From IMG/VR virus record IMGVR_UViG_3300002461_000841, positions 503 through 64,502 of that record: DNA of 64,000 bases. The stretch is one strand, 5' to 3'. The notes below the pieces were generated by a model. The model made no database searches, was not told the DNA's origin, and worked only from the letters and a program-made list of their open reading frames with translations. Positions 19,433 to 35,345 of this stretch are shown here, one piece after another. The DNA comes from a virus. How positions within the stretch are numbered: the first letter of the stretch is position 1; every line of letters begins with the position of its first letter. The translations under genes were made by a program, and so were the position numbers.

Positions 19433-19800
19433 GCAACACCACTGCCGAAGAAATGGTCAAAGCGCTCGTCGCCGATGTGATGTTGAAGGCGCTCGACGAG
19501 GCGAAGTTCGAGGAGCTTCGTAAGGGCGCGATCAAGTACCTGCTCGAACCTGAACCACCGTCTAGCCTCGCTTTTGGGGCAAAGCCGGGACCGAGCCGGC
19601 TCGTCGCGATGTTCAATCAGCAGGTCTCGGAGTTGGCGCACAAGGAGCTCAAGAAGTACGTCGCGGACGACGAGGGCATTCGTGACGCGATTCGGGCGGC
19701 GGCCAAGCGCATCATCGAACGACTCATGACCGACGAGCTCGTGCTCGACACCGTTGCTGGCAAGCTCGTCGAAGGTATCCGCCAGCTCAGTTGGCGCTAG
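19429..19800 (+). CDS. Hypothetical helical protein
   Basis: GGAGG SD and ATGA overlap. Confidence 0.6.
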   Translation: MSNTTAEEMVKALVADVMLKALDEAKFEELRKGAIKYLLEPEPPSSLAFGAKPGPSRLVAMFNQQVSELAHKELKKYVADDEGIRDAIRAAAKRIIERLMTDELVLDTVAGKLVEGIRQLSWR

Positions 19801-20039
19801 GACTTCGAGTCTTCGCGGATCAGTTTCACCGTACGGAACACGGTGATCAGCGCGGAGACGGCGACGGCGAACGTCGATACCAGCGAGAGTGCGAACACGC
19901 GATCGTTGTGGGCGTTCATCGTCGCCATGACGTCTTCGATCGAGGCCGGCGCGGTCTGAACGACGGGCACCGTCGGCATGGTCGACGTTCCGGCCGGCAG
20001 CGACGCGCGCGAGTCGCCGAGGCCCGTGATGATCATCAT
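19797..20039 (-). CDS. Small C-terminally anchored protein
   Basis: TGaTACGTT 7 nt before ATG; C-terminal hydrophobic helix. Confidence 0.55.
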   Translation of the reverse strand: MMIITGLGDSRASLPAGTSTMPTVPVVQTAPASIEDVMATMNAHNDRVFALSLVSTFAVAVSALITVFRTVKLIREDSKS

Positions 20040-20234
20040 GGGGTATAACGTATCATGGGCATATCGGACCACGTCGAACCGTTGCACGCCGCTGATTGTG
20101 ATCGCGGTGCAGGCCCGGAGTTTCGTGTTGGCGGGCGCCTGATCAGACTGACGGCGGGCTACACAATCGGTATCGACCTGAACACCCGCCAGCGCATCAC
20201 GCAATGCAATGCGTGCTCTGGTATCGCGGTCGAT

Positions 20235-20468
20235 CTACTTGCCGAGAGCGCTCGCGATGAGGCCGACGGTGAGCGCCACCACGAACGAGCCGCCACCGAC
20301 GAGCCCGATCAGGTCCCACCGGATGCGCGCTGACGTGATGGGCGCGCCGAGCCCGGCGAGCCGCGCGAAGTCACGCTGGTACGGGTTCATGACGACGGTG
20401 GCGCCGGCGAACTGCACCGTCGTGGTGCCGGGCGCGACGCCGACCGACTGCGCGAAACGGATGGCCAT
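20235..20468 (-). CDS. Small C-anchored protein carrying a copy of the putative capsid N-terminal motif
   Basis: VGVAPGTTTVQ; TAGGCT 6 nt before ATG; C-terminal TM. Confidence 0.65.
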   Translation of the reverse strand: MAIRFAQSVGVAPGTTTVQFAGATVVMNPYQRDFARLAGLGAPITSARIRWDLIGLVGGGSFVVALTVGLIASALGK

Positions 20469-20483
20469 GGGCTTAGCCTACCA

Positions 20484-20684
20484 TTAGCGCGCACGTCGCC
20501 GTTCGATACCGCAGGCTTCACTCTTGGCCGTGCGTTCGCTACGCACCATGAACGGAGTCCCACCACGTTCAAAGACCTGCCACAGACCCCGCTTGAACTG
20601 CGTGATCTTGACGTTGCCTTGCTTGGTCGTGAACTGCTTTTGGGTGGTGGTGCTGGTGTTACGGAGCGCGCACTGTTTGGCCAT
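20484..20684 (-). CDS. Small basic protein
   Basis: K/R-rich; TAGGCT 6 nt before ATG. Confidence 0.55.
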   Translation of the reverse strand: MAKQCALRNTSTTTQKQFTTKQGNVKITQFKRGLWQVFERGGTPFMVRSERTAKSEACGIERRRAR

Positions 20685-20693
20685 GCGCTCAGC

Positions 20694-20942
20694 CTACCAC
20701 TTGAACGGTAGGTGCTGCGTGCGCTTGTAGGCGATGAACCCGAGCCCGAGCCCTAGGCCGCCGACGAGGAGCGAACCGAGAATGTATGGCTCGATCGAGG
20801 CCTTGATGGTCGGGATGGCTTCCTCAGCGCCTGCCTTCGCTTGCGCGCGAATGTAGGCCTCGAACTCGGCGAGCTTCCGGTTGACGTTGGCGCCGCCAGG
20901 GATGAGCGCCAAGAGTTCCTTGAGGTCATCCTGAACCGCCAC
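20694..20942 (-). CDS. Small C-anchored protein
   Basis: Ends PYILGSLLVGGLGLGLGFIAYKRTQHLPFKW. Confidence 0.6.
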   Translation of the reverse strand: MAVQDDLKELLALIPGGANVNRKLAEFEAYIRAQAKAGAEEAIPTIKASIEPYILGSLLVGGLGLGLGFIAYKRTQHLPFKW

Positions 20943-20945
20943 GGG

Positions 20946-21224
20946 TTAGCCCTTGCTGCGCTTGTAGAGCTTGTAGCCGCCGAACGCGATGAGCGCGAGC
21001 CCGACGATGACAAGCCACGTCGGGAGCTGGCGGCCGAAGATGGTCATCGTTCCGCTCGAGGCGCTTCCCGCCGAGGCGCCCTGGGGCCAGAAGCCAGGGG
21101 TCACCGTCGGCGCTTGCGAGGCGAACAGGTTGCCCACGATGGTGTGGGTGGCCGCTGCGTTGAACGTCGCGGCGGTTGGAATGGCTCCGAGCTGGGAATC
21201 GTCGACGGGCTTCATGATCATCAT
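20946..21224 (-). CDS. Small C-anchored protein
   Basis: Ends PTWLVIVGLALIAFGGYKLYKRSKG. Confidence 0.6.
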   Translation of the reverse strand: MMIMKPVDDSQLGAIPTAATFNAAATHTIVGNLFASQAPTVTPGFWPQGASAGSASSGTMTIFGRQLPTWLVIVGLALIAFGGYKLYKRSKG

Positions 21225-21226
21225 AG

Positions 21227-21466
21227 CTACTTGACCTTCTTCTTGTAGAGCGCGACACCGCCGACGCCGCCGGCAACGAGGAGGCCGATGCCCCACCACT
21301 TCTTGTACCAGGGCGTTGTCGCCGCGTTGATCGCGGCCTGGATGTTGGCCCCCGCAGCGGCGAACACCTGCTTGGGCTGGGATTGGTAGAATGCGACGCA
21401 GACGGGGTCATTCGGCGCGATCGCGCAGATGTCCGTCTCGCCGAGCGAGCGCCCCATGAGCAGCAT
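21227..21466 (-). CDS. Small C-anchored protein
   Basis: Ends PWYKKWWGIGLLVAGGVGGVALYKKKVK; TAATG coupling. Confidence 0.6.
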   Translation of the reverse strand: MLLMGRSLGETDICAIAPNDPVCVAFYQSQPKQVFAAAGANIQAAINAATTPWYKKWWGIGLLVAGGVGGVALYKKKVK

Positions 21467-21963
21467 TACGCTGCCGCCTTGCGCGGGGCCAGCACGAGCT
21501 TGTACGTGCCGAAGCCGAGGAGCGCGATGAGCACGATGCCGATGGGCGTCTTGTACCAGCCCGGCGCGAAGAACCCGACCGTGGTCGGCGTCGGCGCTGT
21601 GGGGGTGGTCGGCGCCGGGGGGTTCTGGCGGAACTTCACGGCCGCCGTGTTCGCGGCGACGGTGAGGGGGCCCGCGTACTGCGTGATCAGCGACTTCGCC
21701 TGTGAGGTGCTGCCGCCAACCGCGAGGCCAGCCTGCAGCACGACGTAGAGCCATGTCGGAAGCTGTTCGGAGAGGAGCCCAAGTGCGGCGGTCACGGCCG
21801 CGATGGTCTGGGATCCGACGATGCCGTCGATCGGCCCAGGGTTGATAGCGGGGCGAAGGGTCGCTTTCGCGAGGTTCGCGAGCGCGGTCTGCAGGCCAGA
21901 CACCGACGATGAGCCGCCGAGCTGGACGCCATGCCCCGCATCTTGAAGGCCGTAGTGCAACAT
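21466..21963 (-). CDS. Peptidoglycan-binding-domain protein with C-terminal anchor
   Basis: VSGLQTAL...PGPIDGIVGSQTIAAV (PG_binding_1 pattern); C-terminal TM. Confidence 0.65.
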   Translation of the reverse strand: MLHYGLQDAGHGVQLGGSSSVSGLQTALANLAKATLRPAINPGPIDGIVGSQTIAAVTAALGLLSEQLPTWLYVVLQAGLAVGGSTSQAKSLITQYAGPLTVAANTAAVKFRQNPPAPTTPTAPTPTTVGFFAPGWYKTPIGIVLIALLGFGTYKLVLAPRKAAA

Positions 21964-21990
21964 GGCCCTCAGCCTATCACGAGTCGCGCG

Positions 21991-23466
21991 TTAGCTTTTG
22001 CCGCTCGCTAGGATGGCCCCCGCCGCGAGTGCGCCACCGACGATGATGGGCCACGGGACGGTAGACGCCGCTTCGGTGGTCTCGGTGAACTCTTCGGGGA
22101 TCGGGGTTGGCGCGGGCGGCTGGGTCCAGAATTTACACCACGTCGAGATGGCGACATTGGCGGCCGTCACGGCGGCCTGCTCGGCGCTCGTCGGTGGGGT
22201 GCACTTGCAGAGGGCCTCACCCGGCTTGCACGTCTTGCCAGTGCTCTGATTTGAGCAAAGCGTCGACGCCAGCGAGGTGTTGTGCGACTGGATCGCGGTC
22301 TGGTTGGCGCAGATCATGTCGCCCATGGACCGCATCAGGCTAGCGAGCCCGTCGATGGCATCCTGATACCAGGCCTTGTCGTAGGGCGTGATCTTGAACG
22401 TGTAGCGCCGCGCGGCCCCGACGATCACGGAGATGTTGCGATAGCCCCCCATGGCGACGTTCAACCGGAAGGCTTGGCCGTCCTTGGTCTTGCAGAACTC
22501 GTGGCCCTTCTTGTTCGGTCCGCGCCCGAACGTCGGCATGAACTTCGTTTGTGCTGGGTACTCGCCACGAAGCACCGTGGCGTCGAGGAAGTAGCCGCCG
22601 CGCTCGAGGTACGCGAGGGCGCCCCCCTGATTTTTGCGTTCGGAGATCGAGGGGGCGATTGGGTTCAAGCTGTAGCCGGGGTAGTCGACAACCCAGCGAC
22701 CACTGGCGAGGAGCTCGTCAACAGAGTGAAACTTGGTGACCGTCTCGAGGCGCCCGCCGCCGGCGGTGTAGATCTTGACCCCTTTCGAGAACACGTTAAC
22801 GAGGCCTGATGGGCGGCTCGCCGATCCGGTCAGGTTGTCTTCGATACCGTCATCATTCAGGTCCCAGTCGATCTGGTCGCCGAACACGTCACGCGTGATG
22901 TTCGCCTGCGATCGAATGTAGAGCTGGAAGTCGACGGCGAACTGTTGATCGGTCGTGAGTGTTTGGGCAGTAGTGAACGCTTCGGTCTGCAAGCTCGTGA
23001 TCGGGAACGCGACTGTGTTCCAGGCGAAGAAGCCGTAGGGCACAAGCAACGTGTCGATCCCAAAGCTGCCGGCGGTGTAGGGCCATCCGTAACGGTACGG
23101 GGTGCTGAAACTCTTGGCGTTCGATCCGCAGTCCACCGTGGCCACGGCGGCAAGCGCGCGGCTAACAGCCTTGAGGCGTTCGGCGCGCTTCAACACGAAC
23201 TGGCCGTGTGCACGCTGGATCTCGGCGCGGGTGTCGCCGGCCGTCGAGATCTTGGGCATGCACATGAACCCGTTGGGGCCCGGAGTGCCGGGGACGCCGG
23301 CGCGCGCGCGCTGCCAGTGGCCCGCTACGGTGGCCGTAGCCGTTGCCCATGTGTACCCGGGGGGCGGATTCCCACAGGCGACCTCGGTCGCATTGGGGGT
23401 AGATGCTGCCGCGGCAATGACCTGGGCGGCATCGGCGCCGTCCTTGATGAAGTCGAAAAGGCCCAT
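21991..23466 (-). CDS. Large C-anchored putative virion protein with Cys-rich segment
   Basis: LCSNQSTGKTCKPGEALCKC...WCKFW; ends VPWPIIVGGALAAGAILASGKS. Confidence 0.65.
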   Translation of the reverse strand: MGLFDFIKDGADAAQVIAAAASTPNATEVACGNPPPGYTWATATATVAGHWQRARAGVPGTPGPNGFMCMPKISTAGDTRAEIQRAHGQFVLKRAERLKAVSRALAAVATVDCGSNAKSFSTPYRYGWPYTAGSFGIDTLLVPYGFFAWNTVAFPITSLQTEAFTTAQTLTTDQQFAVDFQLYIRSQANITRDVFGDQIDWDLNDDGIEDNLTGSASRPSGLVNVFSKGVKIYTAGGGRLETVTKFHSVDELLASGRWVVDYPGYSLNPIAPSISERKNQGGALAYLERGGYFLDATVLRGEYPAQTKFMPTFGRGPNKKGHEFCKTKDGQAFRLNVAMGGYRNISVIVGAARRYTFKITPYDKAWYQDAIDGLASLMRSMGDMICANQTAIQSHNTSLASTLCSNQSTGKTCKPGEALCKCTPPTSAEQAAVTAANVAISTWCKFWTQPPAPTPIPEEFTETTEAASTVPWPIIVGGALAAGAILASGKS

Positions 23467-23504
23467 CGGTGATGTCAGCCTATCACGTGGTACGCTCGAC
23501 CTTT

Positions 23505-25178
23505 ATGAAGCCCATCTCGGCGCAGCAGCGCAATCAGGTCGCATGGGTCTCGGGCGCCGCGGGTGTCGCCCTCCTCATCCTCGGCGGTGCGATGTACGCC
23601 CGCGAGCGCAAGCTTGGCCGCTCCGGGGGCGGACTTGGGCGCGGCGCGCGCGTCGCGCAGGCCCCGATCCTGAACACGTACTCCGACGGCAACATGCGCG
23701 CGGTGCTCCGCGGCGCGCCCGAGATGCCGATCGAGCAGCGCGTGGCGACGATTCAGGAGCTCATCGAGAAGTCGATCCAGGATCCGCAGATGCGCAAGGT
23801 CGCGCTCGAGGCCACGCGCAACTGCCCCGAGCGCGATGGGCTATGCGAGGCCAAGGCGATCTACGACTACGTCAAGAAGCGCGTCCGCTACACGGGCGAC
23901 ATCGCGCCGATCAAGTGGGCCGATGGCACCGTCGATGGCGTCGACCTCTACCAGACCGCGCGCCGCACGCTCGAGTTCGGTGGGGGTGACTGCTTGCCGA
24001 TCTCCGCACTCGTTCTGACCGACAACTACGAGCTGGTGCCGCTCATCGAGCTGGAGCCCGGACACCGCATCATGGGTGATGGCGGTTGGGCGACAGTGCA
24101 GGATCGCTGGCTGACGGGCGAGAAGCGTCTGCTCGCGTTCGAGCTCTCGAACGGGTGCGTGCTGCGCTGCACGCCCGAGCATCGCATCTTCCGCAACGTC
24201 GCCGGGCGCGTCGAGGAGATTCGTGCGAGCGAGGCGCGTCCTGGCGATGACCTCGTGATGGCCGACAAGATTCCAGTGGCCGGCGAGGATGGCCACGAGT
24301 GGCCAGAGGTCGCGCGGGGGCTCACCGACGACGAGCGCTCGTGGTTGCTCGGTACGTTCGTCGCTGACGGATGGGCCGATGGGAAACAGACCAAGGAAGG
24401 CTTTGCGCCATACCGCATCGGCATCTCCGGCCGTGACGGGCAGCTCAAGGAAGCGCAGAAGCGTGAAGTCGAGGCGCTCATGGCCAAGATCGGCGTCGCT
24501 ACGCGTTGGCATGAGAAGTACATCGCGGTCAACGATTCGGCGTTGGCGTGCTTCTTCGCGGGTGCCGGCAAGCTCGCGCGTAACAAGCACGTGCAGTCGC
24601 TCAAGCAAGTTTCCGAGGATCAGGTCCACGCACTCATCCGGGGCCTAGCTGCGGACGCTGACAACCGCAATGGTGTGTTCGGTACGACATCCGTGAAGCT
24701 CGCGTTGCAGCTTCGGGTGCTCCATCGCATGGTCGGATTCGGTACGCACATCAGTCGCGTCGACAACCACGGCGGGCTCGGAACGCATCCGGTTTATCGG
24801 GTGACGCCGCGCTTTGTCGCCGAGCGGCGTGATCATGAGTTCGCACGGATTCGTGCCATCGCTGATGGTGGCGTGGAGCTCTGCATGGACCTCACCACCG
24901 ACACGGGCAAGTTCTGGTTGCCAGAGTCGGACGTGCTCGTGCACAACTGTGACGACCACACGATCCTCACGTCGACCCTGCTCGCGCTCAACGGCGTCAC
25001 GCCGCGGATCCGCGTGACCAAGGAGTCGCGTCGCGGCGACTGGTCGCACATCTACGTCGGGGCGCTCCTGCCGAAGTTCGGCGCCGGCAAGTTCGTCGCC
25101 GTCGACACCACGCTGCCGGGTGACGCGAGTTTCGGCGTTGAAGCTCCGTACGCCAAGCACGTCGATTTCGACGCGTAG
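23505..25178 (+). CDS. Membrane-anchored transglutaminase-like (papain-fold) enzyme interrupted by an intein
   Basis: N-terminal TM; spliced GGD|CDD, WSHIY, VDTT give a Cys-His-Asp triad. Confidence 0.8.
   Translation: MKPISAQQRNQVAWVSGAAGVALLILGGAMYARERKLGRSGGGLGRGARVAQAPILNTYSDGNMRAVLRGAPEMPIEQRVATIQELIEKSIQDPQMRKVALEATRNCPERDGLCEAKAIYDYVKKRVRYTGDIAPIKWADGTVDGVDLYQTARRTLEFGGGDCLPISALVLTDNYELVPLIELEPGHRIMGDGGWATVQDRWLTGEKRLLAFELSNGCVLRCTPEHRIFRNVAGRVEEIRASEARPGDDLVMADKIPVAGEDGHEWPEVARGLTDDERSWLLGTFVADGWADGKQTKEGFAPYRIGISGRDGQLKEAQKREVEALMAKIGVATRWHEKYIAVNDSALACFFAGAGKLARNKHVQSLKQVSEDQVHALIRGLAADADNRNGVFGTTSVKLALQLRVLHRMVGFGTHISRVDNHGGLGTHPVYRVTPRFVAERRDHEFARIRAIADGGVELCMDLTTDTGKFWLPESDVLVHNCDDHTILTSTLLALNGVTPRIRVTKESRRGDWSHIYVGALLPKFGAGKFVAVDTTLPGDASFGVEAPYAKHVDFDA
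23991..24947 (+). mobile_element. 319-aa intein with LAGLIDADG-type endonuclease region
   Basis: Starts CLPIS, block B CTPEHRIF, LLGTFVADG and IRGLAADAD, ends VLVHN followed by Cys. Confidence 0.92.
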
Positions 25179-25394
25179 CTAGCGCTTGCAGGCGACCGCG
25201 GCGCGCGCGCCCTTGGTCGTGATCTCGTAGTGCTTGCTCTTGGGCGAAATGCGCTTGATGTAGCCGCCTCGCACGAGCTTGCTGACCGATCCTTTGGGGG
25301 CGCGGCGCGAGATGTCGCTCGCCGGGAAGGAATGCCCCCGTTGAAGCGAAATGGTGCGAGCGAGCTGCAGCAGCGAGCAACTGACGTTTGCCAT
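25179..25394 (-). CDS. Small basic protein, winged-helix-like
   Basis: VSKLVRGGYIKR...YEITTKG; TACGTT 5 nt before ATG. Confidence 0.5.
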   Translation of the reverse strand: MANVSCSLLQLARTISLQRGHSFPASDISRRAPKGSVSKLVRGGYIKRISPKSKHYEITTKGARAAVACKR

Positions 25395-25424
25395 GCCTCA
25401 ACGTAACACGATAGGCTGAGCACC

Positions 25425-25841
25425 ATGTTTCAGCTCGCCGGTACCGAGATCGAGACCAGCACGCTCAACTCCGAGATTGATGGCCTGATCAGCCGCTACG
25501 GCGACCCCAGCCGGGTCGATAGCTCGGCGGTCGCCAACTTCCTCGAGCTGTACCCCGCCAGCCAGCGTGACCTTGTCGGGCGCGCGCTGGTCGGCAAGGG
25601 CATCTCGAACGTCGCTGTCGCCAACGCGCTCCGGTGGAACGACACCACGAGCGCGTTCGCGCGGAACAAGAGCACGATCCTCGGCGTGCTCTCGCTCGCG
25701 AGCGCGGCAGCGTGCGGCTTCCACGGCTACCGCCGCAACAACTCGTACGGCTGGGCGGCGGCCTGGTTCATCCTCGGGGGCATCTTCCCCGTGTTCACCC
25801 CTGTCGTGGCCCTTGCCCAAGGGTTTGGCAAGCCCAAGTAG
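25425..25841 (+). CDS. Membrane protein with two C-terminal helices
   Basis: TAGGCT 7 nt before ATG; two hydrophobic segments around YRRN. Confidence 0.65.
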   Translation: MFQLAGTEIETSTLNSEIDGLISRYGDPSRVDSSAVANFLELYPASQRDLVGRALVGKGISNVAVANALRWNDTTSAFARNKSTILGVLSLASAAACGFHGYRRNNSYGWAAAWFILGGIFPVFTPVVALAQGFGKPK

Positions 25842-25863
25842 CCTCGTGATAGCGTAAGCGCTC

Positions 25864-26193
25864 ATGGCGAAGAACACCTTCATGAGTGGCCGGCTCAAGA
25901 TCAACGTCGGCTTCAACGATCGCACTGATTCCTATCGGGTGCGGTTGTGCCCGACCCCGGTGACGCGTCCGGCGAACCGCAAGGAGTTCCCGTGCCAGAC
26001 CGTGACGGTGAGCCTACCCAAAGCCGGCGCGCGTAGCCGCCATGGCAAACGTCTGGCCGTCGACGATCCACGCGCATTCATGAGCGCCGCGAAGGCTGGT
26101 ATCTCGTTCGCGCGGCAGGACATCCAAGACTTCGCTGATTGGAAGGGGCACGGCGCTGTCGTGCGCCCGCCGAAGCGCAAGCGTCGCCGGTAG
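25864..26193 (+). CDS. Basic hypothetical protein
   Basis: TGaTAGCGT 8 nt before ATG; ends PPKRKRRR. Confidence 0.6.
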   Translation: MAKNTFMSGRLKINVGFNDRTDSYRVRLCPTPVTRPANRKEFPCQTVTVSLPKAGARSRHGKRLAVDDPRAFMSAAKAGISFARQDIQDFADWKGHGAVVRPPKRKRRR

Positions 26194-26216
26194 CCGCTCG
26201 TGGTACCCTGGGCGGC

Positions 26217-26447
26217 ATGCTGATCGCCAAGCCCGTCGCCACCATCATGCCGCACGAGTCCACCCAGCTCTCGGGGCCGCGCCTCGGCTACGTGAGCGCG
26301 CAGGAGTGGCTCGGCGCGCCGCCTGCCGGCAGCCTCGCCGGCGTGTTCGATTCGTGGGCCTGGACCAACCGCAAGTGGCTCGCGCTCGGCGGCGTCGGCC
26401 TCGTCCTCGCCGCGATCGGGACCGCGCTCACCGGCGGCCTCAAGTAG
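26217..26447 (+). CDS. Small C-anchored protein
   Basis: TGgTACCCT 7 nt before ATG; ends KWLALGGVGLVLAAIGTALTGGLK. Confidence 0.6.
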   Translation: MLIAKPVATIMPHESTQLSGPRLGYVSAQEWLGAPPAGSLAGVFDSWAWTNRKWLALGGVGLVLAAIGTALTGGLK

Positions 26448-26810
26448 ATGCTGCGCTACGGGCTCAACGGGCACCGCACACCGGGGCTCGGATCGACGTT
26501 CACCGACGCGCAGGCGATTGCCGATGCCCTCGAGCGCGATCCGAACGGTGAAGGCTTCGAGCGGGCGTTCGCGATCCTCGCCAACTACGTCGGCGGGGAC
26601 CTGCAGCTCGTAGCGAACAAGGCGATCGCGCTCGGGGCGCGCCCAGACCTGATCAAGATCATGCTCGATAGCCTAGGCGGCGAGACGATCGAGGTGGTCG
26701 GGACCGCGCCGAGCTCGACGGCGGTGAAGGTCGGCAAGCTCGCGCTCGGTGCCGCCATCGTTGCTGGCCTCGGCGCGGGGCTTGTCGCCTACTCGCGGCG
26801 TGGGGCGTAG
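26448..26810 (+). CDS. C-anchored protein
   Basis: Ends KLALGAAIVAGLGAGLVAYSRRGA. Confidence 0.6.
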   Translation: MLRYGLNGHRTPGLGSTFTDAQAIADALERDPNGEGFERAFAILANYVGGDLQLVANKAIALGARPDLIKIMLDSLGGETIEVVGTAPSSTAVKVGKLALGAAIVAGLGAGLVAYSRRGA

Positions 26811-27382
26811 CTGATCGTGACGCCGTTGAAGTTCACGTAGCTGTCGCGTTGAGCCCAATGCGTCGCCGGGCCGGTACCGAATACAACCTGATGTCGGGCG
26901 GCGTCGTAGTTCTGGTAGTTCGTGAACACGACAAGCACCGGGGTGTATGCACGGGCTTGGATCGCGTCGAACGGTATGTGCGGCTGATAGGCGCCGAACA
27001 GCACCATTTGGTTTGAGCGTTCCTCGGGGCAGCTTCGCGATCCGAACACGGCGGGCGCGTCGGGGTCATCTGGGCGCGTCATGCCGAACGCCCAACGATT
27101 GGCGTCGTAGAACGAGACCACGCCACGAGTGAACGTGTTGGGGATGCCCGAGAACACCATCGGCGGCTCCGTCTCGCGATGGTTCTGGAAGAAGGCCTTG
27201 TTGTAGGCGCTACCGTGCGTACCGCACCCAGTGAATTGCACGATCGTGGGCCCGATCGGGGTCTCGCCGATCTTGTTGGCGAGTAGCTCCTCGAGCTTGA
27301 TGACGACGTAGCCGCTGCCCACGATGTGGTGAAACCCTCCGGGGCACTCGCGCAGCACGCTGAGGGCGTCGGCCCACGCCAT
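26789..27382 (-). CDS. Hypothetical protein
   Basis: Globular composition; TGATG coupling. Confidence 0.55.
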   Translation of the reverse strand: MAWADALSVLRECPGGFHHIVGSGYVVIKLEELLANKIGETPIGPTIVQFTGCGTHGSAYNKAFFQNHRETEPPMVFSGIPNTFTRGVVSFYDANRWAFGMTRPDDPDAPAVFGSRSCPEERSNQMVLFGAYQPHIPFDAIQARAYTPVLVVFTNYQNYDAARHQVVFGTGPATHWAQRDSYVNFNGVTISYAPRRE

Positions 27383-27774
27383 CAGTTGAGCCGCTCGGGT
27401 GCGACCTCGCGCGGCGCGACTTCGCCGTGCGTTAGCGTGAGCTGATCGGTCAGCATCTTGACCACGTGCTCGGTCGAGAGTTTGGTCTCGTTGCAGTAAG
27501 CGCTGATCGCGAGCACGAGCGTGCGCGTGGCGTCCGTGGGGAACAGGATCAGTGCATCAGCGCCCGTGACCTCCTCAGGCAGCCCCAACGCTTCGGCCAT
27601 GAGCGTCGCGCCGGCCGTCGTCACGAACGTGGCGAACTCCTGCGCCTGGGCCTTCGTCGAGAGCTGCATCACGCCGCGGCGAATGGCCGCGTCAACACTA
27701 GCGATGGCCGTGCGACGGCGGCGTGCGAGCGTCGACACGACGCGGCGCTTGCGCTTGGTGATCGGTTTGGCCAT
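27382..27774 (-). CDS. Hypothetical protein, basic N-terminus
   Basis: Box+TAGCGT 7 nt before ATG 27774. Confidence 0.55.
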   Translation of the reverse strand: MAKPITKRKRRVVSTLARRRRTAIASVDAAIRRGVMQLSTKAQAQEFATFVTTAGATLMAEALGLPEEVTGADALILFPTDATRTLVLAISAYCNETKLSTEHVVKMLTDQLTLTHGEVAPREVAPERLN

Positions 27775-27781
27775 GGGGAGA

Positions 27782-27809
27782 ACGCTATCACGTAGGCCTG
27801 ACAGGCCTA
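27782..27809 (-). promoter_or_regulatory. TGWCA-box promoter within a perfect 17-bp dyad
   Basis: TAGGCCTG-A-CAGGCCTA; CTGTCA-11-TAGCGT, ATG 7 nt later. Confidence 0.65.
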
Positions 27810-28382
27810 GCGGCGGTTTCTCCGCTGCATCGACGCGATCACGTCCTCGGGCACGTAGCGCAGCGTGCGCCCGCCACCACGTAGCGACGGGATCTCGCCC
27901 GCCTTCGTCATGCGGCGCACCGTAGGTACGCTGACGCCAAGAATCTCGGCCATGCGCTCGATGTCGACGACGGCCTCGTTGATGCCGCCCGGGTGCGTGG
28001 CCGCTAGCAGCTCTTGGATCGCCGCTTGGCCGATGTGCTGGATGTACGCAAGGAGATCCGCCACCGGATGGAACCAATCATCGCGAATGCGCGCCGCCTC
28101 ATACTGTTCACCGATCGCCTCGGCGTGCTCGAGGGGCGTCATGGTCGAGACGAGCCCAATCAGCATCGGGTCGAACGGGTTGTCACGTGCGAGCTCAGCG
28201 AGCCGGCGGCCGATGTGCGTGCCCTTGGCGCCCTCGATCTTGATCGGGCCTGCACCGCCGGGCGGCGAGACCTGGACGAACATCACCCACGCTTGCCCGT
28301 TGCCGCTCGCGTGGGGCGCGAATGCGGAGGCAGTGGTCGGGCTGACGATGAGCATTGGGGACGCGTGATCACTCGTGATCAA
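27807..28382 (-). CDS. Degenerate T5orf172/GIY-YIG-like domain fused to an excisionase-type HTH
   Basis: GPIKI...RRLAEL...RIRDDWF; MAEILGVSVPTVRRMTKAGEIP...LRY. Confidence 0.6.
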   Translation of the reverse strand: MITSDHASPMLIVSPTTASAFAPHASGNGQAWVMFVQVSPPGGAGPIKIEGAKGTHIGRRLAELARDNPFDPMLIGLVSTMTPLEHAEAIGEQYEAARIRDDWFHPVADLLAYIQHIGQAAIQELLAATHPGGINEAVVDIERMAEILGVSVPTVRRMTKAGEIPSLRGGGRTLRYVPEDVIASMQRRNRR

Positions 28383-28474
28383 TCGAGCCGCCCCCGGCGC
28401 GAATGGATTCGACTAGTTGAGCATCTACGAGTGAGCATGCGTCGTCAAATGCCTACGTAACCAATTGGAATGAT

Positions 28475-28503
28475 TTGACATTTCACTCACGTGCGCGTAG
28501 TGT
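28475..28503 (+). promoter_or_regulatory. Consensus sigma70-type promoter for the capsid cluster
   Basis: TTGACA-17 nt-TAGTGT, ATG 8 nt downstream. Confidence 0.75.
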
Positions 28504-28511
28504 TCTTGACC

Positions 28512-28901
28512 ATGGCGCTCATCATTCGGCAGGACAACCCGGGCTCGCCCATCCGTCCGGATCGCGTCTACGCGACGGGGGTCATCTCGCCGATGAGCGG
28601 ATTCTATCCGCCGAGCTCTGCCCAGCGTGTGCTACAGGCGTTCACGTCCGGCGCGCTGGGCTCGCCGACACTCATGGGGCCCCTCGCGCGCCTCGGGTAC
28701 CGCGTGCGTGCGTTCTTCGCCGCGCGGCGCGCCCGTGCCTTCTCGAACCTCTCCGGCGGCAACGTCGAGGCGCTCCACGCGCAGCGCGTGGCGCCGCAGA
28801 TCGCGCAGCAGGTTCGTGTCCTCGATCGCATCGCGTCGGGCCCCGCGGGCTCGTCGTCGGCGATGGTCGCGCGCAGCAACATCTTTGGGCGTCGGTACTA
28901 G
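28512..28901 (+). CDS. Putative virion protein
   Basis: First gene after the consensus promoter. Confidence 0.55.
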   Translation: MALIIRQDNPGSPIRPDRVYATGVISPMSGFYPPSSAQRVLQAFTSGALGSPTLMGPLARLGYRVRAFFAARRARAFSNLSGGNVEALHAQRVAPQIAQQVRVLDRIASGPAGSSSAMVARSNIFGRRY

Positions 28902-28904
28902 GTC

Positions 28905-29087
28905 ATGGCGAAGGTCATGACGCTCTCTGGCGCCGGTGACCTCGGTGCCCCGCCCAAGCAGGGCGAATGCAAGATGGTCTGCAACACGCGTACGGGGCGC
29001 GCCGCGAAGCTCTGCTTTGTCGGGAAGTCCTCGAAGAATCGAAGCGGCTGGCAGTTCGTAAAGGGCGGCGGCCAGCGCTGCAAGTAA
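28905..29087 (+). CDS. Small basic Cys-containing protein
   Basis: 4 Cys, K/R-rich. Confidence 0.5.
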   Translation: MAKVMTLSGAGDLGAPPKQGECKMVCNTRTGRAAKLCFVGKSSKNRSGWQFVKGGGQRCK

Positions 29088-29128
29088 GTCCGTCACCCTC
29101 AACCCCAGTCAAGGAAGGTACACGTCAA

Positions 29129-29707
29129 ATGGCTCAGCTCCGCGGTTCCGTCAACCTGCTCGGTCTCAACGCCTACGGGCAGAACCCGGGCATGAACCCG
29201 ATCTTCGGCACGCTCATCGGCGGCGGCACTGCGGCTGTCACGACGATCGCGCTCCGCCACACCGGCACCACGAACAACCCCGAGTTGTTCGGGCTCCTCG
29301 GCGGCCTCGCGGCGTCCGGCCTCATGTTCTCGATGAAGTCGACGCGCCACGCGGCGCTCGGCTCGGCGGTTGGCGCGTTCTTCGCGGCCGGCGTGGCCTG
29401 GCTCGAGAAGACCCTCTTCGGCGCGCAGACCGTTGCCGTGCCGGGCGTCGGTATCCCGACGATTCGCGGTCTCGGCATCCCCGCCGCGCGGCAGCTCAAC
29501 GGCGTCGGGATCCCGAACATCTCGAACGTGAGCTCGCCCGTGGGCGTTGCCGGCAACCAGCTCGCGCAGCCGGGGCACTCCTCGCCGCCCGTGAGCCTAC
29601 TCGGCACGCAGTCGCCGCAGGCGGCGCAGCTCCGCGGCATGGGCGGCCCGACGACGCACGGCCTCTCGGCGGCGTACGGCGCGACGCTCATGGGCATGGG
29701 CCGCTAA
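29129..29707 (+). CDS. Gly-rich multi-pass membrane protein
   Basis: AAGGAAGG SD; three hydrophobic segments. Confidence 0.65.
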   Translation: MAQLRGSVNLLGLNAYGQNPGMNPIFGTLIGGGTAAVTTIALRHTGTTNNPELFGLLGGLAASGLMFSMKSTRHAALGSAVGAFFAAGVAWLEKTLFGAQTVAVPGVGIPTIRGLGIPAARQLNGVGIPNISNVSSPVGVAGNQLAQPGHSSPPVSLLGTQSPQAAQLRGMGGPTTHGLSAAYGATLMGMGR

Positions 29708-29741
29708 CGCGACCCTGATCGAATCGCACTAGTTGTCTCTT

Positions 29742-29850
29742 CACGAGCGCCTCGGCGCTCGTGGGCCGAGCACCGATGAGGGTGCCATCGCGCGGGCGTC
29801 GTAGCCCGCTCGGCCCGCTGTTGCCTTCGCGAAGGGGACGTCCCCTCCGC
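29742..29850 (+). promoter_or_regulatory. Structured intergenic leader of the putative capsid gene
   Basis: Hairpin 29742-29763, three-way junction 29763-29816, hairpin 29829-29850. Confidence 0.45.
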
Positions 29851-29888
29851 GCGGGCGCGAACCTGTAATTTTTCAAGGAGAAGAAGAC

Positions 29889-30596
29889 ATGGCCGGCACT
29901 GTTGGTGTTGCTCCCGGAACCACGACCATCCAGATGGCGGATGGCAAGACCATCTCGATCGAGGACTGGATCGACGACAAGCTGTACTCGACGGTGCAGC
30001 TCGTGAATGCGCAGAGCTCGCCCGTCGAGGCGTTCATCGCTGGCCGCAGCCAGCCGATCTCGGGCGGCACGCGCGCGTCCACCCAGGTCGACACGAACGT
30101 TCCGCGCTCGGGCGACTCGGGTCTCATGCAGTCGTGGGAGATGTACATCTACTCCCTCTGCGTGTCCCCGGTCCGCGTGATGCGTCCGCCCACCGGCGCC
30201 GCGAACCCGACCCTGGCCGATGGCTCGGGCGCGCTCTCGAACGTCCCGACGCTGCAAACGCTGCTCTCGGTCGATCGCGTCACGTACCTCAAGTTCCGCT
30301 ACAACGAGAAGGACTACTCGTACGGCGTGATGTCCGACTACCCGGCGGGCAAGGGGTACTCGGTGTTCTCGACCAACGCGATCTTCGAGAACGCGAACAA
30401 CGGCGTCCCGTCGCCGCGCGACCGGCAGGCGCTCGTGCTGCCCATCTGGCTCCGCGAGAACCTCGCGTACAAGATGAGCTTCGCGCCCGAGGCGCCCCTG
30501 GTGATCAACCAGGCGGCGTCGGATGGCCAGACGGCACTGACCTTCATGGACGTGAAGACGTCCGCGTACGGTCTGATCCGCCGCAACGTGACCTAG
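29889..30596 (+). CDS. Putative major capsid protein, single jelly-roll-like
   Basis: Beta-rich alternation (LYSTVQL, WEMYIYSLCV, YLKFRY, LPIWL, VKTSAYG); strong AAGGAG SD; own terminator; no HK97 signature. Fold not verified. Confidence 0.55.
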   Translation: MAGTVGVAPGTTTIQMADGKTISIEDWIDDKLYSTVQLVNAQSSPVEAFIAGRSQPISGGTRASTQVDTNVPRSGDSGLMQSWEMYIYSLCVSPVRVMRPPTGAANPTLADGSGALSNVPTLQTLLSVDRVTYLKFRYNEKDYSYGVMSDYPAGKGYSVFSTNAIFENANNGVPSPRDRQALVLPIWLRENLAYKMSFAPEAPLVINQAASDGQTALTFMDVKTSAYGLIRRNVT

Positions 30597-30622
30597 TCGG
30601 TCACGGGCGAATCGCTCGAGAC

Positions 30623-30659
30623 AACGGCTCCGGCTTCGGTCGGGGCCGTTTCCCGTTTC
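30623..30659 (+). terminator. Intrinsic terminator after the putative MCP
   Basis: AACGGCTCCGGC-TTCG-GTCGGGGCCGTT stem then T-containing tract. Confidence 0.7.
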
Positions 30660-30663
30660 GGGC

Positions 30664-30846
30664 TCAGAACGGCAGCCTCGGATTAGCCTGGCGCCTGCGT
30701 GCCTCGGCCCACGCCTCGCGCTCCGTCGGGTAGGTCCAGATGCAGTGCAGATCGCCCTTGCTGTTCCTGAAGCACAGCGACCAACCAGCGGCTGAGAACT
30801 GACACACCACGTAGTGCTTGCGGATACCTCTGGGGCGCTTGCTCAC
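30664..30846 (-). CDS. Small hypothetical protein
   Basis: Operon spacing with upstream minus-strand genes. Confidence 0.5.
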   Translation of the reverse strand: MSKRPRGIRKHYVVCQFSAAGWSLCFRNSKGDLHCIWTYPTEREAWAEARRRQANPRLPF

Positions 30847-30849
30847 GTC

Positions 30850-31110
30850 TCAACCCTCGCCGGTCTCGTCGACGATGAGGTGCTCGCGCACACGCGTGTG
30901 GTAGTCCGGATCGATACGACTCTGCATGGTGGATTGCAAGGCGTCGAGCACGCCAGTAACGACGACATGGGCGCCGCCGAATGCCGCCTGCTTGCGCGTG
31001 TACATCTCGCTGGTGGCGACGGTCTCGCCGTTGGCGGCGACGATCGTGAACCAGTATTGAGCCGGGTCGATCATGCGGTCCAAGGCCTGCTTGTGGATCT
31101 TGATCTTCAT
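30850..31110 (-). CDS. YegP/DUF1508-like protein
   Basis: YWFTIVAANGETVATSEMYTRKQAA; AGGAG SD. Confidence 0.7.
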   Translation of the reverse strand: MKIKIHKQALDRMIDPAQYWFTIVAANGETVATSEMYTRKQAAFGGAHVVVTGVLDALQSTMQSRIDPDYHTRVREHLIVDETGEG

Positions 31111-31388
31111 GCTTCTCCTGTTTCGTCGACTAGGATCATCTGCCGGAGCTTCACCGTCATCACGCCGCTCGTGGCGCCCGCGAGGGCGGTCACGATGGTG
31201 CGCGTGGTCGGCGAAGCACCGTCCGTCAGGCGGACGAGATGCCCGAACAGGCCCTTGAGCAGGCCGTCGATCTCGCTGAGGGCGGTGAACTTGTTCGGGT
31301 ACGAGCTGCTCACGGCGACCGGGTTGCCGTGATTCTCGAGCGTGAACGCGTAGGCGCCGTGGCCGCGCTTCTGTAGCCGGATCTGCAC
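31107..31388 (-). CDS. Divergent YegP/DUF1508-like paralog
   Basis: YAFTLENHGNPVAVSSSYPNKFTA; shares VDETGE ending. Confidence 0.5.
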   Translation of the reverse strand: MQIRLQKRGHGAYAFTLENHGNPVAVSSSYPNKFTALSEIDGLLKGLFGHLVRLTDGASPTTRTIVTALAGATSGVMTVKLRQMILVDETGEA

Positions 31389-31760
31389 TTAGTTCACGTC
31401 CTCGGCGCCACCAAGCGCGTGCACGATGGTGCGGCCCCAGAACGCAATGCCGACGACGTGGGGCACTTCGTGGTGCGGGATGCCGATGGTGCGGGCGATG
31501 AAGCCCACCACGGTCGTCCATTCCTCGACCTCGCGCTTGCCGTTCACGGTCTCGCGCAGTGACTGGCGATCGACGAACATCTGGACCACGTCGTCGACCT
31601 TGAGCGGGGCGAGAAAGCTCGCGAGCTCCTTGTCGGCATCGGCGCGTTTGAACACCTCGGGCCAGGCCGAGGGCCCCTTCGAGATGTACGCCTTCGGGGT
31701 CACCTCCGGGCGAGTGAAGTGGAGGTCACGGGCGGGCTTCGGCAACGTACTGACAGCCAT
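31389..31760 (-). CDS. Hypothetical protein
   Basis: Abuts next gene; normal composition. Confidence 0.55.
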   Translation of the reverse strand: MAVSTLPKPARDLHFTRPEVTPKAYISKGPSAWPEVFKRADADKELASFLAPLKVDDVVQMFVDRQSLRETVNGKREVEEWTTVVGFIARTIGIPHHEVPHVVGIAFWGRTIVHALGGAEDVN

Positions 31761-31800
31761 TTGGACTTGGCTCCGGGGTATGGGTTAGGATGACGAGACC

Positions 31801-32340
31801 ATGAGCGATACCGAGTTTCCGATGAACGCGCCCGCAGGTACGGCCCCCGGCGGGAAGGGTCTGCCGATCCTCGGGCGCATCCCGTGGGCGATGTCCGGCG
31901 AGATGACCGTGACTTCCGCGATGCCTCCGACCCAGTTGCCGAGTGCGACCTTCGCGAACAACTTCTCCAAGACGTTCGAGATCCACGAGATCACGTTCGC
32001 GTGCGTCGGGCTCGACAACAACGGCGTCGCGTTGCCCCTCAAGACCCAGCCCAGCCAGTTCGCGCTGCAGAGCATGGTGCGCGTGTTCTTCCAGGACTTG
32101 CTGTTCACGCAGCCGCTCACCAAGGTGGCGACGAAGATCGCCACGCTGACCGAGGGTGACGCTACCAATCGGTGGCGCTGGAAGGCGCCGTACAACCTGC
32201 GCAACCAGGGCAACATCGTCGCCACGCTCGAAGGCCTCACGTTTCCGAGCGGCGAGAGCGTCGATCTGATCAGCATTGCCGTTGTGATCACGTTCAAGGG
32301 CTACTTGCTCGTGCAGGGTACGGGCGACTTCACGCCGTAA
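31801..32340 (+). CDS. Putative second/minor capsid protein, jelly-roll-like
   Basis: Beta-rich (FEIHEITF, VRVFFQD, WKAPYNL, VVITFKGY); TAGGAT 9 nt before ATG. Confidence 0.45.
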   Translation: MSDTEFPMNAPAGTAPGGKGLPILGRIPWAMSGEMTVTSAMPPTQLPSATFANNFSKTFEIHEITFACVGLDNNGVALPLKTQPSQFALQSMVRVFFQDLLFTQPLTKVATKIATLTEGDATNRWRWKAPYNLRNQGNIVATLEGLTFPSGESVDLISIAVVITFKGYLLVQGTGDFTP

Positions 32341-32382
32341 GGGCATCGGAGCCACCTACTCTAGCGCGAGGGGCTGACACTC

Positions 32383-32736: not shown

Positions 32737-32748
32737 TACAGTCGGCTG

Positions 32749-33642: not shown

Positions 33643-33664
33643 GCGGATCTGGTAGGCTCGGGGG

Positions 33665-35339: not shown

Positions 35340-35345
35340 CGGCGT

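What the first reader, a model, noticed from the sequence alone, without database searches (positions are those of the whole stretch)
23505..25178. Intein inserted exactly at the catalytic Cys of a membrane-anchored transglutaminase-like enzyme
Seen: a 319-aa intein (23991-24947) sits in GGD|CDD, so its +1 nucleophile is the presumed catalytic Cys. The spliced product (about 238 aa) has His (HIY) and Asp (VDT) and an N-terminal TM. The second LAGLIDADG motif looks degenerate (IRGLAADAD). Established: phage inteins favour replication enzymes and terminases. Inference: the enzyme is an essential virion cross-linker or maturation protease whose activity depends on splicing.
Basis: partly seen in the sequence, partly recalled or inferred. 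Interest (0 to 1): 0.72.

Follow-up and report, generated by a model that had tools for sequence, protein, structure and literature searches.

The report
Mobile intein splitting viral transglutaminase-like enzyme
A self-splicing, mobile protein element (an intein with its own homing nuclease) sits directly in front of the catalytic cysteine of a small membrane-anchored transglutaminase-fold enzyme of an uncultivated virus. The intein is ordinary in kind, but I found no report of one in this type of host enzyme, and it behaves as a selfish passenger, not a proven regulator.

Summary
ORF 23505-25178 (+) encodes a 557-aa precursor with a 319-aa class-1 intein (23991-24947) inserted in GGGD|CDDH. 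All splicing residues are present: Cys1, TPEH, block-F Asp, His-Asn and Cys+1. Removing the intein gives a 238-aa protein that aligns without a gap (71% identity) to natural intein-free alleles.

Those alleles pass Pfam Transglut_core and fold as a transglutaminase core (Z up to 14.1). Cys, His and Asp are invariant. The second LAGLIDADG motif is not degenerate, because its catalytic Asp is invariant in 66 relatives.

The intein is mobile:
- The 16 nearest extein relatives lack it.
- Presence or absence needs at least 16-30 changes on the extein tree.
- Mini-inteins exist.
- A second, 32%-identical intein lineage uses the same site.
- The intein moved at least twice into a second enzyme family that shares only the GDC[DE] active-site motif.

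Whether the enzyme is a cross-linker or a maturation protease is not established. A conserved x-Leu-Gly motif, in its own disordered linker and in neighbouring membrane proteins, gives weak support to a processing protease.

This scan has already noted the same kind of intein in at least 9 other genomes. Verdict: a new host family for a known kind of element. Interest is moderate.

The parts
23505..25178 (+). Precursor gene: 557 aa made of N-extein, intein and C-extein. The ATG at 23505 matches the N-termini of homologues; an upstream in-frame GTG at 23469 is the start that database gene callers used.
23538..23600 (+). N-terminal transmembrane helix, residues 12-32 (VAWVSGAAGVALLILGGAMYA). There are 2 basic residues before it and 6 after it, so the catalytic domain is predicted to face the cytoplasm.
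   Evidence: KD 1.9; 100 of 116 homologues have more K/R after the helix; long helix 3-36 in the model of the intein-free allele
23625..23645 (+). Conserved x-Leu-Gly motif (GGGLGRG, Leu44-Gly45) in the variable, predicted disordered linker between the anchor and the catalytic domain. It is a candidate processing site.
   Evidence: Leu 55/63 and Gly 60/63 conserved while flanks vary in length and sequence; pLDDT below 70 in this stretch
23505..23990 (+). N-extein (162 aa), ending ...RRTLEFGGGD. It contains the invariant Cys107/Cys114 pair (CPERDGxCE) and the first half of the Transglut_core domain.
23991..24947 (+). Class-1 intein, 319 aa: Cys1 (CLPIS), block B TPEH, block F Asp300, C-terminal His318-Asn319.
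   Evidence: all these residues invariant or nearly so in 66 relatives; only intein in the record
24171..24182 (+). Intein block B, Thr61-Pro-Glu-His64 (TxxH)
   Evidence: His 66/66; Thr or Ser 66/66
24273..24839 (+). Nested LAGLIDADG homing-endonuclease region (about intein residues 95-283). Its borders are inferred from natural mini-inteins that lack it.
   Evidence: P0018 mini-intein, 136 aa; LAGLIDADG_3 hits; weak PI-PkoII match
24345..24371 (+). LAGLIDADG motif 1 (LLGTFVADG)
   Evidence: Gly121, Asp126 and Gly127 invariant in 66/66
24633..24659 (+). LAGLIDADG motif 2 (LIRGLAADA)
   Evidence: Gly218 and Asp222 invariant in 66/66; Ala223 is the family consensus (51/66)
24948..24950 (+). Cys+1 (TGT). 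It is the splicing nucleophile and also the predicted catalytic Cys of the enzyme (Cys163 of the spliced product).
24948..25178 (+). C-extein (76 aa plus stop), carrying catalytic His515 (25047-25049) and Asp534 (25104-25106) in precursor numbering

Best explanation
The gene encodes a small (238 aa after splicing), N-terminally membrane-anchored enzyme of the transglutaminase-like (papain-fold, Cys-His-Asp) superfamily. It is a conserved syntenic gene of a poorly known group of uncultivated, temperate, high-GC viruses of about 70-138 kb. In this virus the gene has been invaded by a class-1 intein carrying a LAGLIDADG homing endonuclease, inserted between Asp162 and the catalytic Cys. After translation the intein should excise itself: Cys1 N-S acyl shift, attack by Cys+1, Asn319 cyclisation, then S-N shift. 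This joins GGGD to CDDH and only then creates the active site, because the Cys sits at the N-terminus of the catalytic helix. At the DNA level, the nuclease is predicted to cut intein-free alleles at the conserved active-site codons (GGnGGnGAC|TGyGAy) during co-infection and copy the intein in. The intein is best read as a selfish passenger that survives because it sits at a site the enzyme cannot afford to lose or change. What the sequence and tools show: the intein anatomy, the seamless extein, the fold and triad conservation, and the patchy, horizontally transferred distribution. What is inferred: actual splicing, actual nuclease activity, cytoplasmic orientation, and the enzyme's substrate. 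My best guess for the enzyme itself (about 35-40%) is a processing protease. It would cut a short x-Leu-Gly motif found in its own linker and in the many single-pass membrane proteins encoded around it.
For: Intein:
- The junctions and all catalytic blocks are present and conserved in 66 full-length relatives.
- Pfam Intein_splicing, Hint and LAGLIDADG_3 hit weakly in this copy and above threshold in relatives.

Extein:
- The in-silico spliced product aligns over 238 residues at 71% identity, with no gap at the junction, to the natural intein-free allele P0122.
- P0122 passes the Transglut_core gathering score (29.0 bits against 23) over profile positions 11-107.
- Among 63 intein-free alleles, Cys162, His195 and Asp214 are invariant.
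- The AlphaFold model (pLDDT 92.7) puts the Cys at the start of helix 162-175, the His in strand 193-202, and the Asp just after strand 209-212.
- VIA-align gives Z 14.1 (3kd4), 11.8 (3isr), about 10-10.7 (TG3, factor XIII, TG2), 10.3 (PeiP) and 9.6 (LapG, PeiW). Foldseek and the Atlas agree.

Mobility:
- An empty site in a syntenic relative is 75/90 nt identical.
- The 16 nearest extein relatives are all intein-free.
- Intein presence needs 30 changes on the extein tree, of which at least 16 are forced by supported branches.
- Intein and extein identities are decoupled: P0035 has 58% intein identity and no extein similarity; P0051 has 32% intein and 56% extein identity.
- The intein tree nests the second extein family twice inside the first.
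- Mini-inteins occur.
- Intein GC3 is 0.79 against 0.90 for the extein.

Protease lead:
- Leu-Gly is conserved (55/63 and 60/63) in an otherwise variable, disordered linker.
- x-Leu-Gly is conserved in orthologues of six neighbouring proteins.
- GLG occurs 10 times against 3.1 expected in the 19.7-37.6 kb block (3 of 1000 shuffles reach this), against 4 observed and 7.7 expected elsewhere.
Against: - No splicing, nuclease or enzyme activity has been measured for any member.
- In this copy the Pfam intein and LAGLIDADG hits are below the gathering scores.
- The nearest solved inteins match only at E 0.25-0.6 by sequence.
The triad rests on topology, invariance and fold matches.
- The fold does not discriminate between protease, isopeptidase, amidase and transamidase.
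- The GLG enrichment is modest. Three of the ten counts come from one GLGLGLG run in a membrane helix, and the count used a crude gene call.
- The intein-containing and intein-free sets came from two length-limited searches, so their ratio is not a frequency.
Confidence: 0.8

Rival explanations
1. The intein has been co-opted as a conditional switch. Splicing, and hence enzyme activation, would be delayed or gated (for example by redox state through Cys1 and Cys+1, or by assembly), so the enzyme fires only at the right stage of infection.
For: The enzyme cannot be active before splicing. Cys1 and Cys+1 could form a disulfide. The virus encodes a thioredoxin-like protein at 34007-34372. Redox-sensitive inteins are described, for example the DnaB intein paper PMC6195587 listed.
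Against: Most close relatives do without the intein: all 16 nearest exteins are intein-free. Presence is patchy, with at least 16-30 gains or losses. The nuclease residues are under conservation, as expected for an element that persists by homing. The same intein also sits in an unrelated-looking enzyme family. None of this requires a host benefit.
Confidence: 0.08
2. The enzyme is a true transglutaminase that covalently cross-links virion proteins (Gln-Lys isopeptide bonds).
For: The model matches real transglutaminases (TG3, factor XIII, TG2) at Z about 10-10.7, and the Cys-His-Asp triad is shared.
Against: The best matches are putative bacterial cysteine proteases (3kd4 at Z 14.1, 3isr at Z 11.8). 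Hydrolases of the same fold (PeiP, LapG, PNGase, CPR-C4) score as well as the transamidases. No evidence of cross-linked products or of conserved Gln/Lys substrate motifs was found. In my background knowledge, most characterised small prokaryotic members of this superfamily are hydrolases.
Confidence: 0.08
3. The enzyme is a cell-wall peptidase or isopeptidase used at entry or lysis, membrane-anchored like a signal-anchor-release endolysin and comparable to the transglutaminase-fold pseudomurein endoisopeptidases PeiW and PeiP of archaeal viruses.
For: Fold matches to PeiP (Z 10.3), PeiW (Z 9.6) and psiM2 PeiP in BFVD. The N-terminal helix is Gly/Ala-rich. The gene lies among virion-type membrane protein genes.
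Against: The positive-inside rule places the catalytic domain in the cytoplasm in 100 of 116 homologues. An intein in a domain that must cross the membrane unfolded would be unusual (background knowledge). No cell-wall-binding domain was detected. The complete relative G003 has a separate protein matching endolysin families.
Confidence: 0.15
4. The insert is a decayed, non-splicing relic and the gene is a pseudogene in this virus.
For: In this copy the Pfam scores for the intein and nuclease domains are below the curated cut-offs.
Against: The frame is open over all 557 codons. Every catalytic splicing and nuclease residue is intact and matches the family invariants. The identical gene occurs on 9 contigs from several samples.
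Confidence: 0.03

Closest known systems
Class-1 inteins with nested LAGLIDADG homing endonucleases (e.g. PI-SceI in yeast VMA1, PI-PkoII in Thermococcus DNA polymerase, phage terminase and RNR inteins)
   Same: Cys1, TxxH, block-F Asp, His-Asn and Cys+1. Two LAGLIDADG motifs with invariant Asp. Insertion in the most conserved active-site motif of the host protein. Patchy distribution, with empty sites and mini-intein derivatives.
   Different: Only remote sequence similarity to solved inteins (E 0.25 to PI-PkoII). The host protein is a transglutaminase-like cysteine enzyme. I found no such extein in the full-text library or in the main text of three intein surveys (PMC4760082, PMC5050341, 10.1101/2025.01.02.630785). 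The +1 nucleophile is itself the enzyme's catalytic nucleophile.
Bacterial transglutaminase-like cysteine proteases (PDB 3kd4 BDI_1141, 3isr; Pfam PF01841 Transglut_core)
   Same: Core fold (Z 14.1 and 11.8; 142-143 residues aligned). Cys at the helix N-terminus with His and Asp on the following strands. The Pfam threshold is passed by the 71%-identical intein-free allele.
   Different: No sequence-level match to any solved chain. It has an N-terminal membrane anchor and a disordered linker with a conserved Leu-Gly motif, and it is viral. The functions of 3kd4 and 3isr are themselves only putative.
LapG / BTLCP (Pfam PF06035, MEROPS C93; PDB 4fgo, 4u65)
   Same: Small single-domain transglutaminase-fold Cys-His-Asp protease (Z 9.4-9.6; Foldseek E 8e-5). 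LapG cuts after a di-alanine motif in a membrane-proximal linker (background knowledge), which is a comparable logic to an x-Leu-Gly site.
   Different: No PF06035 hit at E 0.05 or better. LapG is periplasmic and calcium-dependent, whereas here the domain is predicted to be cytoplasmic. No calcium-site residues were examined.
Adenovirus protease (adenain) and other maturation cysteine proteases of membrane-containing or jelly-roll-capsid viruses
   Same: This is 'works like' only. A viral cysteine protease would trim several virion proteins at a short Gly-containing motif; adenain sites are (M/I/L)XGG-X and (M/I/L)XGX-G (background knowledge). Here x-Leu-Gly is conserved in the enzyme's linker and in neighbouring membrane proteins.
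   Different: It belongs to a different fold family (transglutaminase-like, not clan CE). No cleavage has been observed. The motif evidence is weak.
Chlamydomonas eugametos ClpP intein
   Same: A precedent for an intein interrupting a protease (cited in PMC4760082 and PMC5050341).
   Different: ClpP is a serine protease and its intein is unusual. There is no relation in sequence or in insertion logic.

Membership tests
Intein (class 1) | N-terminal Cys/Ser and +1 Cys/Ser/Thr at in-frame junctions | tested here: met
   Cys163 (CLPIS) and Cys482 (CDDH). Both are invariant in 66 relatives.
Intein (class 1) | Block B TxxH, block F Asp, C-terminal His-Asn | tested here: met
   TPEH (His64 66/66), Asp300 66/66, His318 (57 His, 9 Ser), Asn319 66/66.
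Intein (class 1) | Precise removal restores a contiguous homologue of intein-free proteins | tested here: met
   The 238-aa spliced product aligns at 71% identity over its full length to P0122, with no gap at the junction. The empty DNA site in a syntenic relative is 75/90 nt identical.
Intein (class 1) | Hint-fold profile match above the curated threshold | tested here: inconclusive
   The window copy scores 24.4 bits on PF14890 against a cut-off of 35.8. Relatives P0079 (50.6 bits) and P0088 (36.8 bits) pass.
Intein (class 1) | Protein splicing demonstrated | not testable with these tools
   Needs expression and mass spectrometry.
LAGLIDADG homing endonuclease (two-motif, monomeric) | Two LAGLIDADG helices, each with the catalytic acidic residue | tested here: met
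   LLGTFVADG (Asp126) and LIRGLAADA (Asp222). Gly and Asp are invariant in 66/66, as are Lys153, Glu154 and Lys157 (Gln156 65/66).
LAGLIDADG homing endonuclease (two-motif, monomeric) | Profile match above the curated threshold | tested here: inconclusive
   PF14528 scores 16.9 bits against 22.5 in the window copy. The 58%-identical intein of P0035 scores 34.5 bits.
LAGLIDADG homing endonuclease (two-motif, monomeric) | Site-specific cleavage of the empty allele | not testable with these tools
   Indirect support only: patchy distribution and horizontal transfer.
Transglutaminase-like superfamily (Pfam PF01841 Transglut_core) | Profile match above the gathering score across the core | tested here: met
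   Intein-free allele P0122 (71% identical to the spliced product) scores 29.0 bits against 23 over profile 11-107 of 108. In the interrupted window protein only the N-terminal half matches (19.8 bits), as expected.
Transglutaminase-like superfamily (Pfam PF01841 Transglut_core) | Cys-His-Asp triad conserved, with the Cys at a helix N-terminus | tested here: met
   Cys162, His195 and Asp214 are invariant in 63 alleles. Secondary-structure positions in the pLDDT 92.7 model are as expected. Inter-residue distances were not measurable here.
Transglutaminase-like superfamily (Pfam PF01841 Transglut_core) | Transglutaminase-core fold | tested here: met
   89 PDB chains score Z 8 or more. All 50 listed rows (Z 8.6-14.1) that have a telling name are of this fold, with the top hit at Z 14.1. 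The Atlas gives TM 0.72 to a viral PF01841 cluster.
LapG/BTLCP (PF06035, MEROPS C93) | Profile match to PF06035 | tested here: not met
   No PF06035 hit at E 0.05 or better for P0122, P0129 or the intein-containing forms.
LapG/BTLCP (PF06035, MEROPS C93) | Periplasmic location and calcium-binding site | not tested
   Charge distribution suggests a cytoplasmic domain. Calcium ligands were not examined.
Viral maturation protease (functional class) | Cleaves virion precursors at a shared short motif | tested here: inconclusive
   Conserved x-Leu-Gly in the enzyme's linker and in six neighbouring proteins' orthologue alignments. GLG occurs 10 times against 3.1 expected. There are no cleavage data.

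The most novel reading that the evidence does not exclude
The transglutaminase-fold enzyme is the maturation protease of an undescribed lineage of large (70-138 kb), temperate, internal-membrane viruses with single-jelly-roll capsid proteins. It trims its own anchor linker and the many single-pass virion membrane proteins at x-Leu-Gly sites. In intein-bearing strains, splicing at the catalytic Cys additionally gates when that protease becomes active.
Probability: 0.1. Interest if true: 0.8.

Novelty: new member of a known kind. Interest (0 to 1): 0.42.

Why it matters
- It adds a whole enzyme class, transglutaminase-like cysteine hydrolases, to the list of intein hosts. More than 100 natural alleles, matching empty sites, mini-inteins and two independent intein lineages all use one insertion point.
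- The +1 splicing nucleophile is also the enzyme's catalytic nucleophile. This is a clean natural case of an intein protected by the one residue the host cannot change.
- The intein jumped at least twice between two enzyme families that share little beyond the GDC[DE] motif. This is a useful data set for studying how homing endonucleases reach new targets.
- In practice, automatic annotation misses these genes: most are labelled 'hypothetical' and the Transglut_core hit is split. Virus annotators should splice them in silico.
- The enzyme is a conserved marker of a poorly known virus group whose capsid candidate looks like those of internal-membrane viruses. That may be the more important lead.

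Tried and rejected
- DNA and protein searches of 50,697 deposited phage genomes found no relative of the locus. The only hit was an intein segment in a Thermus phage RNR, at E 8e-4.
- PHROGs gave no family for the precursor.
- A profile of the intein-free alleles found no solved structure by sequence.
- The intein matched solved inteins only at E 0.25 or weaker.
- hhalign between the two extein families gave only a 47-column match around the active site (probability 14%, E 0.002). I do not claim that they are homologous beyond the shared motif.
- At the DNA level the two families' target sites share only the core GGnGAC|TGyGAC.
- Literature searches for intein with transglutaminase terms returned only biotechnology papers.
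- Terminase_6N and Phage_capsid profiles found nothing in this record or in four relatives, two of them complete. This is absence of detection only.
- The 491-aa divergently transcribed neighbour gave no informative Pfam, PHROG or Atlas match.
- Model coordinates are not exposed to the script box, so triad distances could not be measured.
- I did not send the in-silico spliced protein to remote tools, because it is not a letter-for-letter product of the DNA. The natural intein-free allele P0122 was used instead.
Full report
**1. The observation.** A single open frame runs from 23469/23505 to 25178 on the + strand. Homologues start at the position of ATG 23505. That gives a 557-aa precursor.

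Residues 163-481 (DNA 23991-24947, 319 aa) begin CLPIS and end LVHN, and are followed by CDDH. Pfam sees the three expected pieces, all weakly because the copy is divergent: Intein_splicing (E 2.8e-5), LAGLIDADG_3 (7.7e-3) and the N-terminal half of Transglut_core (1e-3).

**2. The insert is a class-1 intein with a nuclease that looks functional.** I aligned 66 full-length relatives, which run from about 32% to 71% identity to this copy.

- Splicing residues: Cys1, His64 of block B (TPEH here), Asp300 of block F, Asn319 and Cys+1 are invariant. The penultimate residue is His in 57 and Ser in 9.
- Nuclease residues: both LAGLIDADG helices keep their Gly and catalytic Asp in all 66 sequences (Gly121/Asp126/Gly127 and Gly218/Asp222). 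Lys153, Glu154 and Lys157 are also invariant, and Gln156 is kept in 65 of 66.
It differs from the textbook string only in ways that are the consensus of this family, so that description is not supported.
- Similarity to solved inteins is remote (PI-PkoII at E 0.25).
- The record holds no other intein.

**3. The host protein is a transglutaminase-fold Cys-His-Asp enzyme, and the junction is seamless.** A search with the N-extein alone found 119 proteins of about 230-240 aa without any insert. Some are named 'transglutaminase-like putative cysteine protease' by JGI.

- The in-silico spliced product aligns to the nearest of these proteins (P0122) over all 238 residues at 71% identity, with no gap at the junction.
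- P0122 passes the Transglut_core gathering score across almost the whole profile (29.0 bits against 23).
- In 63 intein-free alleles, Cys162, His195 and Asp214 are invariant. They correspond to Cys482, His515 and Asp534 of the precursor. A CPERDGxCE cysteine pair is also invariant.
- An AlphaFold model of P0122 built with that alignment has pLDDT 92.7. It places the Cys at the N-terminus of a helix, the His in the next long strand, and the Asp just after the following strand.
- Structural comparison is unambiguous about the fold: Z 14.1 to 3kd4, 11.8 to 3isr, about 10-10.7 to TG3, factor XIII and TG2, 10.3 to PeiP, 10.1 to TglA, 9.6 to LapG and PeiW, 9.4 to PNGase.
- The fold is silent about chemistry. 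Proteases, isopeptidases, amidases and transamidases all score alike.
- I could not measure triad distances, because coordinates are not exposed.

**4. Anchor and orientation.** Residues 12-32 form a hydrophobic helix (Kyte-Doolittle 1.9). Two basic residues precede it and six follow it. In 100 of 116 homologues the basic excess is on the C-terminal side. By the positive-inside rule the catalytic domain therefore faces the cytoplasm. That suits a domain which must fold and splice before it works. This is inference.

**5. The intein is mobile and selfish in pattern.**

- A syntenic relative (L005) carries the intein-free gene in the same neighbourhood. Its empty site is 75/90 nt identical to the fused flanks here.
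- The 16 nearest extein relatives of this enzyme all lack the intein.
- On a tree of 184 exteins, intein presence needs 30 changes, at least 16 of them forced by supported branches.
- Six relatives carry shortened or mini-inteins of 136-254 aa.
- Intein GC3 (0.79) is below that of the extein (0.90).
- Two deeply separated intein lineages use the same site in this enzyme family. One ends in His-Asn (this copy). The other ends in Ser-Asn and is only 32% identical, although its exteins are 56% identical.
- Conversely, inteins 57-58% identical to this one sit at G-x-G-D|C-[DE] in a second family of about 181-aa enzymes. Those exteins show no BLAST similarity to this one and only a 47-column profile match around the active site.
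- On the intein tree that second family is nested twice within inteins of the first family, which requires at least two host switches.
- These members lie on virus-like contigs with almost no annotated genes.

**6. What the enzyme does.** This part is weakly constrained. The gene is a conserved syntenic member of a block rich in small single-pass membrane proteins.

Earlier notes of this scan (e1-5344151, e1-3508340) proposed that such proteins share an x-Leu-Gly motif that could be a protease site. I checked this in part.

- In the 63 intein-free alleles, the linker after the anchor varies in length and sequence and is predicted disordered, yet Leu and Gly are kept in 55 and 60 of 63.
- Orthologue alignments of the products of 19797, 21466, 26139/26217, 28905, 28967/29129 and 32749 keep an x-Leu-Gly at matching positions.
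- GLG occurs 10 times against 3.1 expected in the 19.7-37.6 kb block (3 of 1000 shuffles reach this) and 4 times against 7.7 expected elsewhere. Three of the ten come from a single GLGLGLG membrane run, and my gene call was crude.

I therefore rank the readings as follows: processing protease first (about 35-40%), then cell-wall isopeptidase (about 15%), then cross-linking transglutaminase (below 10%). No datum supports cross-linking specifically.

**7. Context noticed on the way.** The record is a 69.9-kb IMG/VR contig, estimated 65% complete.

- It encodes an integrase, a Sak4-like protein, a DUF669-type SSB, an SNF2 helicase, a PD-(D/E)XK nuclease and a ComM-like ATPase.
- No large terminase, portal or HK97 capsid protein was detected here or in a complete 85.6-kb relative.
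- The most conserved protein of the block (29889-30596, 235 aa; 66-71% identical in relatives) models as a jelly roll (pLDDT 87.5).
- Its best PDB matches are capsid proteins of internal-membrane viruses: SPV1 Z 7.7, HHIV-2 7.1, HCIV-1 6.7, STIV 6.5, P23-77 VP17 6.0. Z below 8 is not decisive, and Foldseek found nothing below 1e-3.
- This agrees with the first-stage note e1-5344140 but belongs to another finding.

**8. Novelty.** Inteins at active-site motifs, nested LAGLIDADG nucleases, patchy distributions and mini-inteins are all textbook. What seems new is the host enzyme.

- No paper in the searchable library pairs inteins with transglutaminase-like proteins in this sense.
- The main texts of three intein surveys (PMC4760082, PMC5050341 and the 2025 actinobacteriophage preprint) do not mention such an extein.
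- I could not consult InBase.
- The scan itself has already noted the same arrangement in at least nine other genomes, with three follow-ups reaching the same verdict. This window is one more instance, not a first sighting.

**Verdict:** a new member of a known kind, of moderate interest.

Noticed in passing
window 29889-30596 (+): This is the most conserved protein of the structural block (66-71% identity in relatives). It models as a jelly roll (pLDDT 87.5). Its best solved matches are capsid proteins of internal-membrane viruses: SPV1 Z 7.7, HHIV-2 7.1, HCIV-1 6.7, P23-77 VP17 6.0. All are below Z 8, so this is a lead and not a proof.
   Followed up: partly
whole record G000 and complete relative G003 (L026-L030, 85,650 bp with a 90-bp terminal overlap): Pfam and PHROGs detected no large terminase, portal or HK97-type capsid protein, although replication, integrase, methylase and spike-like genes are recognised. 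The virus group may not be tailed.
   Followed up: partly
window 19797-37531: An x-Leu-Gly motif is conserved at matching positions in orthologues of several small membrane proteins. GLG occurs 10 times against 3.1 expected in this block and 4 times against 7.7 elsewhere. These could be processing sites.
   Followed up: partly
P0051, P0063 and about 20 other database proteins (same enzyme family): A second intein lineage, only about 32% identical and ending in Ser-Asn instead of His-Asn, occupies exactly the same insertion point.
   Followed up: partly
L007:4545-6077 (P0035, NCBI MAG contig JBFONC010000030.1, 217 kb) and 43 similar proteins: A second family of enzymes, about 181 aa after splicing (G-x-G-D|C-[DE]-x-L-x-x-W-R), carries inteins 57-58% identical to this one. 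Its contigs are 190-217 kb with almost no annotated genes, so they may be jumbo viruses.
   Followed up: partly
window 23823-23846 (Cys107...Cys114 of the precursor) and 34007-34372: An invariant CPERDGxCE cysteine pair lies in the enzyme, and a virus-encoded thioredoxin-like protein lies 9 kb downstream, syntenic in relatives. A disulfide or redox link is possible but untested.
   Followed up: no
L008:787-1899 (genome 64786-65898, just beyond the window): A 370-aa protein matches the C-terminal half of PHROG 1735 at E 1.7e-112 (function unknown). It is the only strong link of this record to catalogued phage proteins.
   Followed up: no
window 36599-37531 (-): A 310-aa protein with a C-terminal membrane helix has a conserved YTLARYMQSE...ERV.VGE.AVNR stretch that recalls SleB-type cell-wall hydrolases (from memory). 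Pfam gave no hit at E 0.01.
   Followed up: no
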